This document shows, piece by piece, positions 30,887 through 36,623 of a stretch of 64,000 nt of DNA; within the stretch, counting starts at the first letter, position 1, and every line of letters starts with the position of its first letter. Below the pieces are notes generated by a model. It did not search any database. It saw nothing but the letters and a program-made list of their open reading frames with translations, and had not been told where the DNA came from. Source of the DNA: Ionaspis alba (lineage: Eukaryota); assembly GCA_964255285.1 (NCBI GenBank), contig CAXUUL010000015.1, positions 1-64,000 of the forward strand. Reading direction: 5' to 3'. A program made the translations under genes and the position numbers.

Positions 30887-31991
30887 ATGCCATCCTCAGT
30901 CCTCTCCACCCTCACAACTACCGCATCCGGTGCCTTTTTCGGTGCTGCTCTCGCCTATTCGGTAGTACACCCTCCGGCCGTACTATTCGCACAGATGCGG
31001 TTACAAAGTTTCCACGTTCTGAAAGTCTTCCTGACCGGAAGCGGCTGCAGCGCGTATGTCCTCTCACCACCTACTGTGACCAAGCTTCAGAGAACTCTGA
31101 CCTCATGACCATCGCCTTGTTACTGACTCCCGGTCCAGCATAATCCTAGGCGCCTTCCAGCGTCTTAATCTCGCATCCTACACTCCCCGCACACCCAGCA
31201 CAATCAACCTCTTCTCCGCCTACGACGCGAACATCATCGGCGGCCTGCTCATAGGCATCGGCATGGCGCTCACTGGCGCCTGTCCCGGGACTGTGCTCGT
31301 GCAGGCAGCGACAGGCGTTTCATCGGGAATCTTGGTCCTCTTCGGCGCACTTCTGGGAGGAATAGCGTGGGCTAGGTGGGGACAACAGTTGAAGCGATCC
31401 CCACACCCTAAATCGACAAACGGCAAGGGTGTCCAAAGCACGTTGACGATCCAAGAGAAATTGGGATGGAGCTACGCGCAGGCACTGCTGGCGTACGAGG
31501 TGATGGTCCTTGTCTTCGTGGCCGCTAGCACTTTCCTGGGACCAGTGGAAGCAGGAGGGAGGCTGCAGCCGGTGGTTGGAGGACTACTAATCGGAGGCGC
31601 GCAGGCAGCGAGTCTACTATTAACGGGAAACTCGGTTGGGGTGTCGGGAGCTTATGAAGAGGCTGGGAGGTGGTTCTGGCATCTGAAACGAGCTCGTGCA
31701 GGGTCATCACCGTCGTCGCAAGCGCTGAAGTTTGCGTCGGGTATCATGCTTGGAGCGGTGATTCTGTCGCGATCGATGCCAAGCGTTGTGGCTGCTAATG
31801 ATGATGCGACTGAGGTATCGAATATGGCGGCTGTGATTGGGGGCGTGCTGTTGGCTTTTGGGGCCAGGATGGCTGGAGGGTGCACGTCGGGGCATGGGAT
31901 AAGTGGGATGGCGATGATGAGTGTGGCAAGTGTCGTTACGGTACCGGCGATGTTTGTTGGAGGAATGATAGTAAGGGCAATTTTGGGATGA
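30887..31991 (+). CDS. YeeE/YedE family sulfur-compound (thiosulfate-type) transporter
   Basis: GIGMALTGACPGT and FGARMAGGCTSGHGISG signature motifs. Intron 31054-31138 keeps the frame. Confidence 0.9.
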
Positions 31992-32294: not shown

Positions 32295-34860
32295 TCACCT
32301 TATAACCTCCCCGCCCTCCTTCTCAATTCCCTCCAATCCTTCCAGGATATCGCTTCCTCCCAACAACCCCGCCACCCCACCAGTCGACTTCCTCGCCTCA
32401 CTCCACACCTCATGGAACTTGACCGACTCATCCGACGACGCCACGACGATACATCCTTCCTCAGCCGTCCTACTCCACCACCTCCCGCCCTCGCCGCCCC
32501 TCTTCTTCCCATCGTTCGGCCCTCCAGGATACGCGACGGCGTACAGTGCTCTAATTTCGCCGATCCAAGGGATTGCAACGACCTGCTTGCAATCCGGCCA
32601 TGAGAAGACAGCGATACGGTAGGGATGCTCGGGCTGGGCATAGCCAAATGTAGCGGCAATTTCACGGCGGGTAGTCGACCAGATGAGCGATGTCACCTGT
32701 GCTTGCACGTTGATAGTCGCCAGACAGGCGCCGGAGAATGCGTGATAGAAGTGAATGGCTCGGTCATTGGAGCCGCCACCTGTAGCGAGAAGACCGCGCT
32801 GCCATGGACAGAAGGCGATGGCTTTGACGGCGGCGCTGTGAGGCCATTTGTGTCGTTCGCGGCCGGCAGGTACATTCAAGACAATATTATTACTACCGGG
32901 AATATAAGCGGGCCGTATCGGCCTATTGAAGACGTTGTTGAAGGCTGGTTGGGAAGTGCTGCCGAGAATGCTACCCAAGGTTTGGTGCGATGGCGCACTG
33001 GGTACGAAGTCTGGAATTAGACCTGTCATCATGGTTTGGAGGGGCCCGCCTGGCATCATTGAGACGGTCGGGGGGGTGAGTACATCGCGAACTTCAAAGA
33101 GGCAGCAGGCGTTGTCATTTCCACCAGATGCGAAATAGTCGCCGTCTGGCGACCACGCTAGACCACAGATCTGCTGGGTGTGGGTGCTGATTTTAGCCAT
33201 CAAGTGCATTGCGCCCTGCCAGCCGGGATCGCTCGAATTAGTTCCCCATTCGATGTAGTAATAGTATACATTCCCGGCCTCGTCGCCGACCAACAGTTCT
33301 TCCATAGCAACGTTGATGCCTAGTCGTTCGGATGGACGGCGAGTTGTGACAGGCTTGAAAGTGAGACAAGCTACCGAAGTAGGATGTTGAGCCGAGAAGC
33401 GTTCTTCTTCGTCGAAAAGACTCCAGAGACCAACTTGTCCGCTGTTGCGCCCGACTGCGAGGATGGCTTGACGACCTTCGTTTGAGGAGAACGATAATGA
33501 AGTGACATATGAGTTTCGACGATTCTCATCGATACGAGGATATTGCACTCCACTTGCTTCTGACCAGAGATAAACTCGAGTGTGTAATCCAACTGCGAGC
33601 GTATTTGTGATGCGACAGTAGGCTAGGACGGAGCAGTAAAAATCGTCACGAAGTTGGGGTGCATCCAGAACTGTGCTTGATATAAGCCCGTACGCACAAA
33701 ATTAGAGAACAGACAGCACATATCTAAATGGTGTGGAAGGCACTGGTATTCTTTCAGTCTTCTGAGACTTACGTGTTGCTGCATGAATGAGACTGTCAGA
33801 AAACTCTTCAACAGACCCGGTGAACCGTGATTAATGTGATACTCAGGTCTCCATGGCAGAACTCACGCGACTCCGTATCCTCGTTGTGCCACCTTCCATC
33901 CCGCCAAAACGTGCCAGCCTGAACTCGGCGCTTACCATTCTTGATTGGACTCTTGAAGACTTCAGGCTCGGGAGATTGCGAGATCGATAGGGTTCTGCTG
34001 GTCTGGTCAATGTCCAAAGCGACTGCCAATCTTCCCTCGAATCGTTCTCGACTCTGGTCAGGCGTCTCAGTTTCGAAGAACCGGGAGCTGAACATCGGTG
34101 CATTAGTGCCAGTGCCAAGCAGTCCCCCACGACCATTGGAAACTCCAGTGATCGGTCCGGGTGAAGAAGCTACAGAGCCTCCCACATTCCAGATAGCGCC
34201 AGCACTCGGTCTTCTGTCTGCAATCCCGATAGAGCCTGGACGCACGCCAAGAACATCTCCTCCACCAACCGTAAACGGCCTTGAAGGTGAAGGAGTGGGA
34301 GAGCCATTGTAGATTTCGTGAGAGGGTAGCCCACCTTCGTCTATCCTACTTGGAATCCGAGTGCTGAAGGGATCCTGGCTTACAGATTGATGCCGAATCA
34401 GTTTCTCGATAGTTGTCAATTGATCTGATGGCTTGCTCAGGTGGAAGCTTTTCGCGGAGGACTCAGGTGATCGACGAGTGGGTATGAACCGATCTGGCGA
34501 CGTCGGCGGTGTAAGGTATGGCGAGTCGTTACTTACGCATCTCCGCTTGGGTGATGAGACCTCATAACGCGTATGTCCGGTCTCGGCTGTAGCCTTTGAA
34601 ACAAGAGCTGGCTGTAGAGGAAAGGGAAAAGCATCTCGTGCTCGACTGGCTTGCACCAATGGTGTGGGATCGACAAAAGCAGGAGGGGAAGGAAATGCCG
34701 CCTGAACAGGCTGTGTGAGGTCGACAGACTTGGGACGTTCGACTTGCAGTGCAAAATTATAAGACGATGAACGTGGAGGTAAAGATGGACAAAACAAGCT
34801 GTTCCTCGAACAGTTATTTGAAATTGGAAAGTCCTCCACTGATACTGACTCTCGCGGCAT
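32295..34860 (-). CDS. AMA1: WD40 APC/C activator, Cdc20/Fizzy family, Ama1-like
   Basis: C-box DRFIP, VLDAPQLRDDFYC, HTQQICGLAWS..FASGGNDN, HSAAVKAIAFCPW...ATGGGSNDR, and a C-terminal IR tail. Intron 33779-33866 plus a probable AT-AC intron at 33673-33723. Confidence 0.85.
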
Positions 34861-35312: not shown

Positions 35313-36623
35313 ATGGCTAGTGTGAGTGAGTCTAGGTCTATACAAAAGAGTTCTCTGAGATATCTCAATAGCATGGGGTACCTCGAGTCCGCGAACTCGA
35401 GCCAAGAACAGAGCAAGCAAAACAAAAAGAAATCAAAAAGATTGAAGAATATATGGCTTTAGTAGATCTTGTGAATCTAAAGGTCCGTATCAAAGTCATC
35501 AGCCATTACCTCTCCGCTGAAATGTTCATCAGATACAAGAAAGAAACTATACGATTGAAGTCCTCGATCTTACTGCCCGGCTTCTGACCCTCAATCCCGA
35601 ATTCTACACAATATGGAATCACCGCCGACGAATCCTCAACCACCATTTCAACCTCCATTACTCGCCCCTGGCTACCGATCCCGTCTCCAATTCCTCCTAT
35701 GATCCCGAGTCTCCATTCAACAAGCCCTTCGAGGTCATCACGCGTTTCCTGAAAGCCGACTTAGCATTTACCTTCCCCCTGCTTTTAAAATTCCCCAAAT
35801 GTTACTGGATTTGGCTGCATCGGCAACACCTCCTTCTAACATCCACTCGACTTCTTCCCCCTCTTGCTTCTCGTGCTCTCTGGACTTCTGAATTAGTACT
35901 CACAACAAAGATGCTCTCTCGAGACGCCCGCAACTTCCACGGCTGGGGCTACCGCCGCACGATAGTAGAGGCGCTGGAGAGTGAGGCGCTGAATCCTGGC
36001 AAGGACCCGAGGGAGAGAAGCATGGTGAAGGAGGAGTTTGACTACACGACTAGGATGATCAAAAGTAATTTGAGTAATTTTTCGGCATGGCATGCCAGGA
36101 GTCAACTTATCCCGAGATTGCTGGATGAGGCTGATGCCGGAGATGTGAAGAGGAGGAAGATGTTGGATGACGGTTCGAATTCTCCTCCTCGAATGACTTT
36201 GTGGTAATGCACTAATACCCGCCCTCTTCCAATGCAGAAATCTCTCTCATAACAACAGCGCTCTACACTGACCCCATGGATCAATCCCTCTGGTTCTACC
36301 ACCAATTTCTTATTCAAACCATATATCCAACCAACGCTCATCATTCATTCGTCCGTTTCTCGGCCAAAGACAGGATACGGTATCTTGAGAATCTTCTCGA
36401 TGAGACAATCGAGTTACTCGACGGCGCCGAGGACTGCAAGTGGATTTATCAGGCTCTCATACAACTTTGCTTATCGTTGCGTGCCGAGACCGATAAATCA
36501 TGGGCTGATATTGCTGGAGAAGGGAGGATAGAGAAGTGGATGGCGGAATTGAAAAGATTGGATCCTTTGAGGTCGGGAAGGTGGCGGGACCTGGAGAAGG
36601 AGCTGAGATTTGGGTTAGGATAG
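35313..36623 (+). CDS. BET4: Rab geranylgeranyltransferase (type II) alpha subunit
   Basis: MAS|HGVPR start and PPTA repeats NPEFYTIWNHRR, PKCYWIWLHR, RNFHGWGYRR, SNFSAWHAR, DQSLWFYH; C-terminal LDPLRSGRW. Introns at 35322-35371, 35483-35532 and ~36173-36237. Confidence 0.93.

What the first reader, a model, noticed from the sequence alone, without database searches (positions are those of the whole stretch)
33673..33723. Probable non-canonical AT-AC intron in the meiotic APC/C activator AMA1
Seen (minus strand): ...CCA TTT AG|atatgtgctg...gcttatatcaagcac|A GTT CTG GAT GCA CCC. Removing this 51-nt AT..AC segment gives VPSTPFRVLDAP, the family-typical motif; retaining it gives an in-frame TAA. 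The donor ATATGT is the U2 consensus GTATGT with G1>A, not the U12 consensus ATATCCTT. Established: most ascomycetes lack the minor spliceosome, and budding-yeast AMA1 is controlled by Mer1-dependent meiotic splicing. Inference: a weak U2-type AT-AC intron could gate Ama1 production to meiosis. Canonical in-frame alternatives exist (GTAAGT donor at 33772, or exon skipping to CACAG at 33671), but they delete the VPSTPFRV segment.
Basis: partly seen in the sequence, partly recalled or inferred. Interest (0 to 1): 0.7.

Follow-up and report, generated by a model that had tools for sequence, protein, structure and literature searches.

The report
Conserved AT-AC intron in AMA1 gene
A lichen fungus's meiosis-linked cell-cycle gene carries a rare intron that starts with AT and ends with AC instead of GT and AG, and the same odd intron sits at the same spot in many other fungi, where it has misled automatic gene prediction.

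Summary
On the minus strand, 33723..33673 is a 51-nt ATATGT...CAC segment. Removing it joins PFR to VLDAP in an 809-aa Cdc20/Fizzy-family APC/C activator with a C-box, a WD40 domain and an IR tail. Retaining it gives an in-frame TAA.

Comparative data make it a real intron. In 80 orthologous metagenome loci plus the window, 62 carry an intron at this exact codon phase, with 44 distinct sequences: 27 AT-AC, 14 GT-AG, 2 AT-AG and 1 AT-AA. Eleven loci are intronless and encode PF[RK]VLDAP contiguously.

The AT-AC introns look U2-type. They read AT[A/G]NGT with +5G and +6T in 27 of 27, have a CTRAY branch site 10-11 nt from the 3' end, and end in YAC. None looks U12-type.

Exon 2 shows codon-periodic conservation right up to the AT. 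AT-AC occurs in lineages matching Lecanoromycetes, Dothideomycetes and Leotiomycetes; loci matching Sordariomycetes are GT-AG.

Many deposited gene models skip exon 2. No RNA run was available. The meiotic-gating idea remains untested, although AMA1 is post-transcriptionally gated in budding yeast (Mer1) and in Fusarium (A-to-I editing).

The parts
33867..34860 (-). Exon 1 of the AMA1-like gene (ATG at 34860..34858), 331 codons plus 1 nt
   Evidence: Open frame and translation. The N-terminus aligns with the Xylographa models P0003 and P0004 and with the close relative P0401.
34474..34494 (-). C-box DRFIPTR, the APC/C-binding motif of Cdc20-family activators (motif name recalled)
   Evidence: Coordinates. 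The same motif class (DR[FY][IVL]..R) was found upstream in 11 of 13 loci checked.
33779..33866 (-). Intron 1, canonical GTGAGT...CTGAC...CAG, 88 nt, phase 1
   Evidence: Its removal joins TES to PTRK in frame.
33724..33778 (-). Exon 2, 55 nt, encoding (P)TRKSQKTERIPVPSTPF(R)
   Evidence: In the AT-AC lineages the last six codons are conserved with third-position wobble. The motif xVPxxPF[RK]VLDAP is present in 63 of 147 family representatives.
33767..33772 (-). GTAAGT inside exon 2, a potential competing canonical donor
   Evidence: Pairing it with the AG at 33672..33671 is in frame but deletes RKSQKTERIPVPSTPFRV (and reading of the sequence).
33673..33723 (-). AT-AC intron, 51 nt, phase 2, splitting the R codon AG|A
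   Evidence: The orthologous position is AT-AC in 27 distinct introns.
33718..33723 (-). 5' splice site ATATGT, the fungal U2 consensus GTRNGT with G1>A
   Evidence: in the AT-AC set +1A, +2T, +5G and +6T are each 27 of 27, and +3 is A in 24 and G in 3.
33701..33705 (-). CTAAT, the best consensus branch-site match, with its A 29 nt before the intron end. It contains the in-frame TAA (33704..33702) that is read if the intron is retained.
33682..33686 (-). CTTAT, a degenerate branch-site match at the position conserved in orthologues (A followed by 10 nt to the intron end)
   Evidence: In 23 of 27 AT-AC introns and 10 of 14 GT-AG introns a YTRAY has its A 10-11 nt from the 3' end.
33671..33675 (-). 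3' splice site CAC|AG. The intron ends at C 33673. A canonical CAG ends 2 nt further on, at 33671.
   Evidence: In the AT-AC set -3 is C in 20, T in 6 and A in 1; -2 is A and -1 is C in 27 of 27.
32295..33672 (-). Exon 3: one nt, then VLDAP... the WD40 propeller ... EVIR, then stop TGA at 32297..32295
   Evidence: Pfam PF24807 (CDC20/Fizzy WD40 domain) scores 220.7 bits against a cut-off of 200. PDB CDC20 matches at E=7e-40 and FZR1 at 5e-34.

Best explanation
The segment 33723..33673 is a genuine spliceosomal intron with AT-AC ends. It is removed by the major (U2-type) spliceosome from the pre-mRNA of an AMA1-like APC/C activator in a lichen-forming ascomycete. Apart from its first and last bases it has ordinary fungal U2-type signals: AG|ATATGT, a CTRAY-like branch site and YAC|. 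The likely mechanism is as follows. An A at +1 still allows 5' splice-site recognition and the first catalytic step. The second step normally needs the non-Watson-Crick G1-G(last) contact, and here it is rescued by the matching A1-C(last) pair. Exon ligation therefore happens at CAC| rather than at the CAG two bases downstream. The intron is ancient and orthologous across several classes of Pezizomycotina. It is AT-AC in lineages matching Lecanoromycetes, Dothideomycetes and part of Leotiomycetes, GT-AG in lineages matching Sordariomycetes, and has been lost repeatedly elsewhere. What is shown: the sequence anatomy, the conservation, the coding constraint across the junction, and the failure of canonical alternatives. 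What is inferred: actual splicing in this organism, use of the major spliceosome, and the A1-C rescue mechanism. Whether the intron is inefficient or regulated is unknown.
For: (1) Anatomy and frame.

(2) Orthologous DNA. Of 80 loci plus the window, 62 carry an intron at the same phase-2 position. These give 44 distinct introns: 27 AT-AC, 14 GT-AG, 2 AT-AG, 1 AT-AA and no GT-AC. Eleven loci are intronless and encode PF[RK]VLDAP contiguously.

(3) Retaining any of the 30 distinct non-GT-AG introns gives a frameshift (21), a stop (8) or an open frame (1). In 13 of 30 no canonical GT/GC..AG in-frame alternative lies within 24 nt of the junctions. In the other 17 every alternative deletes or inserts residues in the motif.

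(4) U2-type signals. +5G and +6T are 27 of 27. A YTRAY branch A lies 10-11 nt from the 3' end in 23 of 27. None of the 44 introns has [AG]TATCC or TCCTT[AG]A.

(5) Protein-level selection reaches up to the AT. The exon-2 V, P, P and F codons have entropy of 0-0.73 bits at positions 1-2 and 0.98-1.86 bits at position 3. The split codon stays basic through five spellings: AGA 18, CGA 4, AAA 3, AGG 1, AAG 1.

(6) Protein run-ons. Among the 120 best homologues of exon 3, all 26 ORF-type proteins that run into the intron have T (codon ACN) before VLDAP. P0010 retains a whole intron in frame as PFR-YVLL...TFTT-VLDAP. The closest relative P0401 (87% identical) reads ...LTKST-VLDAP.

(7) Paraphaeosphaeria minitans. 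Run-on models read ..TSLTIQMSSDF...TSHT-VLDAP. This is compatible with only one exon-2 end (CCAGTCTTACCATTCAG) followed by an intron starting ATG and ending AC. Another deposited model (P0438, four accessions) joins ..LPVLPFR-VLDAP exactly.

(8) One Lecanoromycete cluster holds a 901-aa joined form on contigs of about 3.3 kb. It also holds the split pair P0512 (ends ...PFR then stop) and P0513 (starts at the VLDAP V codon), which are 442/444 and 456/456 identical to the joined form. This is the pattern expected of mRNA versus unspliced DNA or RNA.

(9) Literature, passages read. A1/C-last rescue in yeast and the RPL30 AT-AC intron: PMC11585973, PMC5029451. The AUA(A/C)GU 5' splice site of Aspergillus telomerase RNA supports step 1 and blocks step 2 at an AG: PMC4299874. 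An AT-AC junction is listed among non-canonical sites in Fusarium graminearum: PMC3577648. No minor spliceosome in Dikarya: PMC10639083.
Against: No RNA of this organism, or of any species whose AT-AC DNA I hold, was seen. Splicing at AT/AC is inferred, not observed.

In the window the branch-site match at the conserved position is degenerate (CTTAT), and the consensus CTAAT lies 29 nt from the 3' end.

Two strong canonical donors (GTGAGT at 33866, GTAAGT at 33772) can pair in frame with the CAG ending at 33671. An exon-2-skipped isoform could therefore coexist or even dominate.

Three distinct orthologous introns are AT-AG or AT-AA in intact genes. The simple A1-C(last) rule does not explain them.

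The joined P. minitans model could come from protein-homology annotation rather than from transcripts. I could not check whether the 901-aa joined contigs are RNA-derived, because the tool that would show this is closed.
Confidence: 0.87

Rival explanations
1. The AT..AC segment is never excised as such. The functional mRNA uses canonical sites (GTGAGT at 33866 or GTAAGT at 33772 to the CAG ending at 33671), skips exon 2 and encodes ...TES-LLDAP.... The PFR/VLDAP match is a relic.
For: Both canonical pairings are in frame in the window. Deposited gene models of Xylographa, Lambiella, Letrouitia, Pycnora, Agyrium, many Pleosporales and Pseudogymnoascus have exactly this skipped form.
Against: Those models come from predictors that allow only canonical sites. 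Exon 2 is under codon-level purifying selection up to the AT in 27 AT-AC lineages. Intronless and GT-AG orthologues all encode the segment contiguously. In 13 of 30 non-GT-AG introns no canonical in-frame alternative lies within 24 nt of the junctions.
Confidence: 0.07
2. It is a U12-type (minor-spliceosome) AT-AC intron.
For: It has AT-AC termini, and the branch-to-3'-end distance in orthologues is short at 10-11 nt. That distance resembles the spacing of U12 introns (recalled).
Against: None of the 44 introns has [AG]TATCC at the 5' end or TCCTT[AG]A near the 3' end. +5G and +6T are invariant, as in U2-type sites. The GT-AG orthologues have the same 10-nt spacing. Surveys find no minor introns or snRNAs in Ascomycota (PMC10639083, passages). 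The window's own genome is not held, so its snRNAs could not be searched.
Confidence: 0.01
3. It is a sequencing or assembly error, or a dead gene: the terminal bases are wrong, or the gene is a pseudogene.
For: None beyond the rarity of AT-AC introns in fungal annotations (PMC7072748, passages).
Against: Contigs from two runs match with no differences (same study, and one may be the source). The same termini occur in 27 distinct orthologous introns. All three exons are open and conserved.
Confidence: 0.01
4. The intron is real, but its AT-AC state is a frozen accident without regulatory meaning. Once both ends had changed, returning to GT-AG needs two changes through a poorly spliced intermediate, so the state persists by constraint.
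For: The intron was lost at least four times on the gene tree, and loci matching Sordariomycetes are GT-AG. So neither the intron nor its AT-AC state is required. +5G and +6T are invariant only in the AT-AC set, as expected for simple compensation.
Against: AT-AG and AT-AA forms persist in intact genes of Helotiales-like lineages. This suggests either that intermediates are tolerated, so there is no deep valley, or that splicing of this intron has help. AMA1 is post-transcriptionally gated by other means in yeast and Fusarium.
Confidence: 0.6

Closest known systems
U2-type (type II) AT-AC introns, e.g. human SCN4A/SCN5A (Sheth et al. 2006, PMC1557818, passages read)
   Same: AT-AC termini on an otherwise U2-type 5' splice site. 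The metazoan consensus is /ATAAGT (PMC5029451, passage), which is the same pattern as ATAAGT, ATATGT, ATACGT, ATGAGT and ATAGGT here. The borders are conserved between distant species.
   Different: It is fungal, about 50 nt long, and has a CTRAY branch site 10-11 nt from the 3' end. The orthologous series also contains GT-AG, AT-AG, AT-AA and intronless states. Splicing by the major spliceosome is not shown experimentally here.
Engineered A1/C-last actin intron and the natural RPL30 AT-AC intron of S. cerevisiae (Parker & Siliciano 1993, as cited in PMC11585973 and PMC5029451; passages read)
   Same: An organism without a minor spliceosome splices /AT...AC/. The first and last bases covary.
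   Different: The RPL30 AT-AC event accounts for 1-2% of transcripts and does not resemble the /ATAAGT class (PMC5029451). The AMA1 intron interrupts a conserved coding motif and must be removed for a full-length protein.
AUA(A/C)GU 5' splice site of Aspergillus telomerase RNA (Kannan et al. 2015, PMC4299874, passages read)
   Same: The same non-canonical 5' splice-site sequence class in Pezizomycotina, recognised by the spliceosome for the first step.
   Different: There the A1 blocks the second step at a normal 3' site and serves 3'-end formation. Here the 3' end is C, which should permit exon ligation. The AT-AG orthologues (L040, L046) resemble the telomerase arrangement and are unexplained.
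Mer1-dependent intron of S. cerevisiae AMA1/SPO70 (PMC11585973, passages read)
   Same: The gene family is the same (source names call the homologues AMA1). The intron has a non-consensus 5' splice site in a meiosis-linked APC/C activator.
   Different: The yeast intron is GT-AG class and has a Mer1 enhancer. I recall that it sits at a different place in the gene but did not test this. No Mer1-type regulation is known or tested in Pezizomycotina.
Restorative A-to-I editing of a premature stop in Fusarium graminearum FgAMA1 (PMC11156358, PMC10776026, passages read)
   Same: An AMA1 orthologue whose full-length protein depends on an RNA-level event tied to the sexual stage. The defect has arisen repeatedly (six independent origins in Sordariomycetes, per PMC10776026).
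   Different: The mechanism is base editing of UAG, not splicing. Editing cannot turn AC into AG, so it does not explain AT-AC introns.
U12-type AT-AC introns
   Same: The terminal dinucleotides, and a short branch-to-3'-end distance.
   Different: There is no ATATCC 5' motif and no TCCTTRAC branch motif in any of the 44 introns. The host phylum lacks the machinery (PMC10639083).

Membership tests
U2-type (type II) AT-AC intron | Intron begins AT and ends AC | tested here: met
   Also true of 27 distinct orthologous introns.
U2-type (type II) AT-AC intron | 5' splice site matches the U2-type consensus apart from position +1 | tested here: met
   ATATGT in the window. The set reads AT[A/G]NGT with +5G and +6T in 27 of 27.
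U2-type (type II) AT-AC intron | U2-type branch site (fungal CTRAY) rather than TCCTTRAC | tested here: met
   The window has CTAAT at 33705..33701 and CTTAT at the conserved position. 25 of 27 AT-AC introns contain a YTRAY, and in 23 of them it lies 10-11 nt from the 3' end.
U2-type (type II) AT-AC intron | The junction is actually used in mRNA | not testable with these tools
   No RNA run was listed for this organism. There are indirect hints only: the joined P. minitans model and the 901-aa joined contigs.
U2-type (type II) AT-AC intron | Removal depends on U1/U2/U4/U5/U6, not on the minor snRNPs | not testable with these tools
   Inferred from the motifs and from the reported absence of minor snRNAs in Dikarya (PMC10639083). 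The window's own genome is not held.
U12-type intron | 5' splice site [AG]TATCCTT | tested here: not met
   0 of 44 introns.
U12-type intron | Branch site TCCTTRAC 10-15 nt from the 3' end | tested here: not met
   0 of 44 introns contain TCCTT[AG]A.
Cdc20/Fizzy family APC/C co-activator | Seven-bladed WD40 domain of the CDC20/Fizzy type | tested here: met
   PF24807 at 220.7 bits, cut-off 200. PDB CDC20 at E=7e-40 and FZR1 at 5e-34.
Cdc20/Fizzy family APC/C co-activator | N-terminal C-box (DRFIPxR) and C-terminal IR tail (motif definitions recalled) | tested here: met
   DRFIPTR at 34494..34474, and the protein ends ...EVIR.
AMA1 (meiosis-specific activator) orthologue group | Closest named relatives are AMA1, not Cdc20 or Cdh1 | tested here: inconclusive
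   Source names on homologues include 'meiosis-specific APC/C activator protein AMA1' (Nannizzia, Emmonsia, Paraphoma, Dothidotthia, Rutstroemia, JGI entries), 'putative AMA1 protein' (Sordaria) and 'Meiotic fizzy-related protein 2'. No tree with yeast Ama1, Cdh1 and Cdc20 was built.
AMA1 (meiosis-specific activator) orthologue group | Expression or function restricted to the sexual stage | not testable with these tools
   There is no RNA data. In F. graminearum the orthologue acts in ascosporogenesis (PMC10776026, passages).

The most novel reading that the evidence does not exclude
The AT-AC intron (and its AT-AG and AT-AA variants) may be a splicing lock that keeps a potentially harmful APC/C activator from being made outside the sexual stage. 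On this reading it is removed efficiently only in ascogenous or meiotic cells. It would be a third, independently evolved RNA-level gate on the same gene, beside Mer1-dependent splicing in budding yeast and restorative A-to-I editing of FgAMA1 in Fusarium. It would also be a natural series for studying how the spliceosome handles A at +1 with C, G or A at the last position.
Probability: 0.18. Interest if true: 0.85.

Novelty: new member of a known kind. Interest (0 to 1): 0.6.

Why it matters
1. Gene annotation. Predictors limited to GT/GC-AG mis-model this gene. Of the 111 longer homologues newly returned, 29 lack the PF[RK]-VLDAP junction against 70 that have it; 12 showed no motif. The mis-modelled ones include named models from Lecanoromycetes, Pleosporales, Botryosphaeriales, Pseudogymnoascus and Botrytis. 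A key meiotic regulator is therefore wrong in many deposited proteomes.

2. Splicing biology. This is a single orthologous intron that exists as GT-AG, AT-AC, AT-AG, AT-AA and absent across related fungi. That gives a natural covariation series for the contact between the first and last intron bases, in organisms without a minor spliceosome.

3. Regulation. Because AMA1 is gated at the RNA level in two other fungal lineages, the intron is a concrete and testable candidate for stage-specific splicing in lichen fungi and other Pezizomycotina.

My full-text searches for AT-AC with U2-type and fungi, with AMA1 and intron, and with filamentous fungi found no report of this intron.

Tried and rejected
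RNA evidence. The search for sequencing runs listed no RNA holder. Only two DNA-like contig sets of one study were laid, and they confirm the bases only.

Own genome. It is not held, so the U11, U12, U4atac and U6atac genes could not be searched.

Earlier notes of this scan. Three look-ups found nothing.

Same-species pairs of run-on and joined proteins. The first two attempts found none above 93% identity. Cluster look-ups then gave P. minitans and the P0412 cluster. Their RNA or DNA origin stays open.

A-to-I editing as an explanation. I rejected it for AT-AC, because editing cannot make AG from AC. For AT-AG and AT-AA it would give GU-AG. However, the edited A would follow A rather than the preferred U (PMC11156358), and the editing system is reported to have arisen in Sordariomycetes (PMC10776026). 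I keep it only as a low-odds idea.

Short canonical alternative in the window (GTCTGT..CAAG, 39 nt, giving PFRYVLTVLDAP). It is not conserved in other loci and inserts four residues.

Tree. Before building it I dropped loci with an exon-3 ORF under 400 aa (L029, L033, L043, L057, L067, L074) and exact duplicates.

Two literature calls failed on term syntax. One search was rephrased. One search was not repeated.

The hit PMC3091305 for 'AT-AC' turned out to be polyketide-synthase domain strings (KS-AT-ACP) and is irrelevant.
Full report
**What is in the window**

The gene lies on the minus strand and starts at the ATG at 34860. Its parts are:
- Exon 1: 34860..33867.
- Intron 1: 33866..33779, canonical GTGAGT...CTGAC...CAG, 88 nt.
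- Exon 2: 33778..33724, 55 nt.
- The flagged segment: 33723..33673, 51 nt, reading ATATGT...CAC.
- Exon 3: 33672..32298, followed by TGA.

Removing both introns gives an 809-aa protein. It has a C-box (DRFIPTR, 34494..34474), the motif ...IPVPSTPFRVLDAPQLRDDFY, a WD40 domain and a C-terminal ...EVIR. The WD40 domain passes Pfam's cut-off for the CDC20/Fizzy family (PF24807, 220.7 bits against 200). It also matches solved CDC20 (E=7e-40) and FZR1/Cdh1 (E=5e-34).

Retaining the 51 nt gives PFRYVLSVL and then TAA. The nearest GT..AG pair (GTGCTG..CACAG) shifts the frame.

One contig from each of two public runs of one study matches the stretch without a difference. One of the two may be the source sample.

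**Who the organism is**

The best homologues of exon 3 are from Xylographa (75% identity) and Lambiella (72%), followed by other lichen-forming Lecanoromycetes. An unnamed relative reaches 87% (P0401). On the gene tree the window sits with Xylographa and Lambiella.

Sources name homologues 'meiosis-specific APC/C activator protein AMA1', 'putative AMA1 protein' or 'Meiotic fizzy-related protein 2'. I did not build a tree with yeast Ama1, Cdh1 and Cdc20. Family membership is therefore shown, while AMA1 orthology rests on those names.

**Comparative DNA evidence**

A scan of metagenome contigs with an alignment of 28 homologues matched 160 stretches. Of these, 109 encode relatives, and the best 80 were kept as loci. 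I located the VLDAP codon in each locus and parsed the sequence upstream.

Of the 81 sequences (80 loci plus the window):
- 62 have an intron at exactly the window's position, in phase 2 inside the R/K codon before VLDAP.
- 11 are intronless and encode PF[RK]VLDAP contiguously.
- 6 matches begin too late to show the site.
- 2 lack upstream DNA.

The 62 introns collapse to 44 distinct sequences: 27 AT-AC, 14 GT-AG, 2 AT-AG (L040, L046) and 1 AT-AA (L049 = L050). There is no GT-AC.

**Anatomy of the AT-AC introns**

The AT-AC introns are 46-53 nt long.
- 5' end: A and T at +1 and +2 in 27 of 27, A (24) or G (3) at +3, and G and T at +5 and +6 in 27 of 27. The donors are ATATGT, ATACGT, ATAAGT, ATGAGT and ATAGGT. 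This is the fungal U2-type GTRNGT pattern with only the first base changed.
- 3' end: C (20), T (6) or A (1) at -3, then AC in 27 of 27.
- Branch site: a YTRAY motif has its A 10-11 nt before the intron end in 23 of 27. The same spacing holds in 10 of 14 GT-AG orthologues.
- None of the 44 introns has the U12-type [AG]TATCC donor or a TCCTT[AG]A branch motif.

The window itself has CTTAT at the conserved spot and a consensus CTAAT 29 nt from the end.

**The AT-AC boundaries are the only consistent solution**

Retaining the 30 distinct non-GT-AG introns gives a frameshift in 21, a stop in 8 and an open frame in 1 (L051). For 13 of the 30 there is no in-frame GT/GC..AG alternative within 24 nt of the junctions. 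In the other 17 every alternative deletes or inserts residues in the motif.

Exon 2 is under protein-level selection right up to the AT. In the 27 AT-AC sequences the V, P, P and F codons before the junction have entropy of 0-0.73 bits at positions 1-2 and 0.98-1.86 bits at position 3. That is the same periodicity as in the first codons of exon 3. The split codon stays R or K through five spellings: AGA 18, CGA 4, AAA 3, AGG 1, AAG 1.

**Independent protein-level survey**

Many database proteins are ORF calls on fungal contigs that run backwards from exon 3 into the intron. In such a call the residue before VLDAP reports the last two intron bases: ACN gives T, while AGA or AGG gives R.

Among the 120 best homologues of exon 3:
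- 26 have T before VLDAP.
- None of the ORF-type calls has R or S there without the PF motif.
- 17 carry PF[RK] joined to VLDAP (Teloschistales and a second group, intronless in the DNA loci).
- 7 are full gene models that skip exon 2.
- The remaining 70 start at or after the motif.

P0010 retains a whole intron in frame: PFR-YVLL...TFTT-VLDAP. The 87% relative P0401 reads ...LTKST-VLDAP.

Among the 120 best homologues of a Helotiales-like locus, 10 have T and 18 have R before VLDAP. The Botrytis cinerea model P0343 reads ...LIFST-VLDAP.

**Taxonomic spread**

The quick gene tree has 60 rows; short ORFs and duplicates were dropped, and the careful search did not finish. The loci themselves are unnamed metagenome contigs, so each class below is assigned from the closest named protein. 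AT-AC falls in three class-level groups:
- Lecanoromycetes, including the window.
- A group whose nearest named proteins are Dothideomycetes (Lindgomyces at 67-77% identity, Saccharata) and an Arthoniomycete (Chrysothrix).
- The basal branches of a Leotiomycete group (Stipitochalara at 94% to L040; Cadophora, Clarireedia, Botrytis).

Inside that Leotiomycete group the states are mixed: AT-AC (L034, L042, L054), AT-AG, AT-AA, GT-AG (L041, L047, L048) and intronless. Its sister group is uniformly GT-AG (10 rows), and its nearest named proteins are Sordariomycetes (Podospora, Cercophora).

Eurotiomycete and Teloschistales gene models all carry the joined motif.

The simplest reading is an old AT-AC state with later reversion and repeated intron loss. 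Without outgroup DNA the polarity is not settled.

**Hints that the junction is used**

First, Paraphaeosphaeria minitans has deposited models of two kinds within one 90% cluster. Run-on models read ...TSLTIQMSSDF...TSHT-VLDAP (P0553-P0555). A joined model reads ...LPVLPFR-VLDAP (P0438, four accessions). Back-translation shows that the two peptides are compatible with a single exon-2 end, CCAGTCTTACCATTCAG, followed by an intron beginning ATG. The T codon shows that the intron ends in AC. By codon count the intron is 47 nt long. Someone's pipeline therefore annotated exactly this AT-AC intron. I cannot tell whether it did so from transcripts or from protein homology.

Second, a Lecanoromycete cluster holds a 901-aa joined protein on contigs of about 3.3 kb (P0412, P0515). 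It also holds a split pair from the same organism. P0512 ends ...VVPSTPFR then stop and is 442/444 identical to the joined form. P0513 starts at the VLDAP valine codon and is 456/456 identical. This is what mRNA beside unspliced DNA or RNA would look like. I could not fetch the contigs. The split pair does not reveal the intron's terminal bases.

**Mechanism**

All papers in this section were read as passages only.

Yeast genetics showed that a G1-to-A change blocks exon ligation and is rescued by changing the last G to C. A natural AT-AC event exists inside the RPL30 intron (PMC11585973 and PMC5029451).

In Aspergillus telomerase RNA a natural AUA(A/C)GU site undergoes the first step but not the second at a normal 3' site (PMC4299874). 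Filamentous-ascomycete-type A1 sites are thus recognised by the major spliceosome.

Metazoan U2-type AT-AC introns share the /ATAAGT pattern. Such introns were hypothesised long ago for some fungal xylanase genes (PMC1557818, PMC5029451). An AT-AC junction is listed among the non-canonical sites of F. graminearum (PMC3577648). Ascomycota show no minor introns or snRNAs (PMC10639083).

Taken together, the most likely working of the window's intron is ordinary U2-type splicing. The A1-C(last) pair replaces G1-G(last) and directs ligation to CAC| rather than to the CAG two bases downstream. This mechanism is inferred, not shown here.

**What remains open**

- No RNA of this organism was available. 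An exon-2-skipped isoform through the strong canonical sites cannot be excluded.
- The AT-AG and AT-AA orthologues lie in genes with intact exon-3 ORFs (427 aa). Upstream C-box exons were found for L040, L049 and L050; L046 was not checked. By the telomerase precedent these introns should stall after step 1, and I have no tested explanation for them.
Yeast AMA1 needs Mer1. F. graminearum FgAMA1 needs sexual-stage A-to-I editing of a premature stop, which arose six times independently in Sordariomycetes (PMC11156358, PMC10776026). But repeated intron loss and the GT-AG state in loci matching Sordariomycetes show that the AT-AC state is dispensable. A frozen two-base change is at least as likely.

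**Verdict**

The intron is real with high confidence and of a known, rare kind (U2-type AT-AC). Its depth of conservation, its mixed orthologous states and the widespread mis-annotation it causes appear unreported in the library I searched. The regulatory role is an open and testable question.

Noticed in passing
L040 and L046 (AT-AG); L049 = L050 (AT-AA): Helotiales-like orthologues carry ATAAGT...CAG or ATAAGT...CAA at the same intron position. Their exon-3 ORFs are intact at 427 aa. Upstream C-box exons were found for L040, L049 and L050; L046 was not checked. Their sisters L047 and L048 have G at +1 but weak GTAAAA/GTAAAC donors. An A at +1 with G or A at the last base should stall after the first step, so these are unexplained.
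   Followed up: partly
All intron-bearing loci: The branch-site A lies 10-11 nt from the intron end in 23 of 27 AT-AC and 10 of 14 GT-AG orthologous introns. This is a strikingly fixed and short spacing across fungal classes. The window departs from it, with a degenerate CTTAT there and a CTAAT 29 nt from the end.
   Followed up: partly
Deposited proteins P0003-P0008, P0024, P0118, P0123, P0126-P0130, P0133, P0343, P0402, P0417, P0419, P0421-P0430, P0517 and others: Public gene models of this gene in many Lecanoromycetes, Pleosporales, Botryosphaeriales, Pseudogymnoascus, Botrytis and Oidiodendron skip exon 2 or read through the intron. This is presumably because predictors do not allow AT-AC.
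   Followed up: partly
P0412/P0515 versus P0512 + P0513 (cluster look-up): The same organism yields a 901-aa joined protein on contigs of about 3.3 kb and a split pair whose first half ends exactly at ...PFR then stop. This may be spliced and unspliced transcripts in public assemblies. This species also lacks intron 1.
   Followed up: partly
window 33671..33866 (-): Intron 1 is phase 1 and the AT-AC intron is phase 2, and a CAG ends 2 nt after the AC. Skipping exon 2 to that CAG is therefore always in frame. This explains why predictors choose it, and it would allow a natural exon-skipped isoform.
   Followed up: partly
L051; P0010: In these two orthologues the AT-AC intron is a multiple of three with no stop, so retention would insert 16-18 residues instead of truncating the protein.
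   Followed up: no
window 31101..31991 (+): Neighbouring ORF of 296 aa with the Pfam Sulphur transport domain (PF04143, E=1.3e-32), convergent with the AMA1-like gene.
   Followed up: no
window 35521..36623 (+): The divergent upstream neighbour encodes protein prenyltransferase alpha-subunit repeats (PF01239, E=2.4e-32). It is split over at least two open frames, so it probably contains an intron.
   Followed up: no
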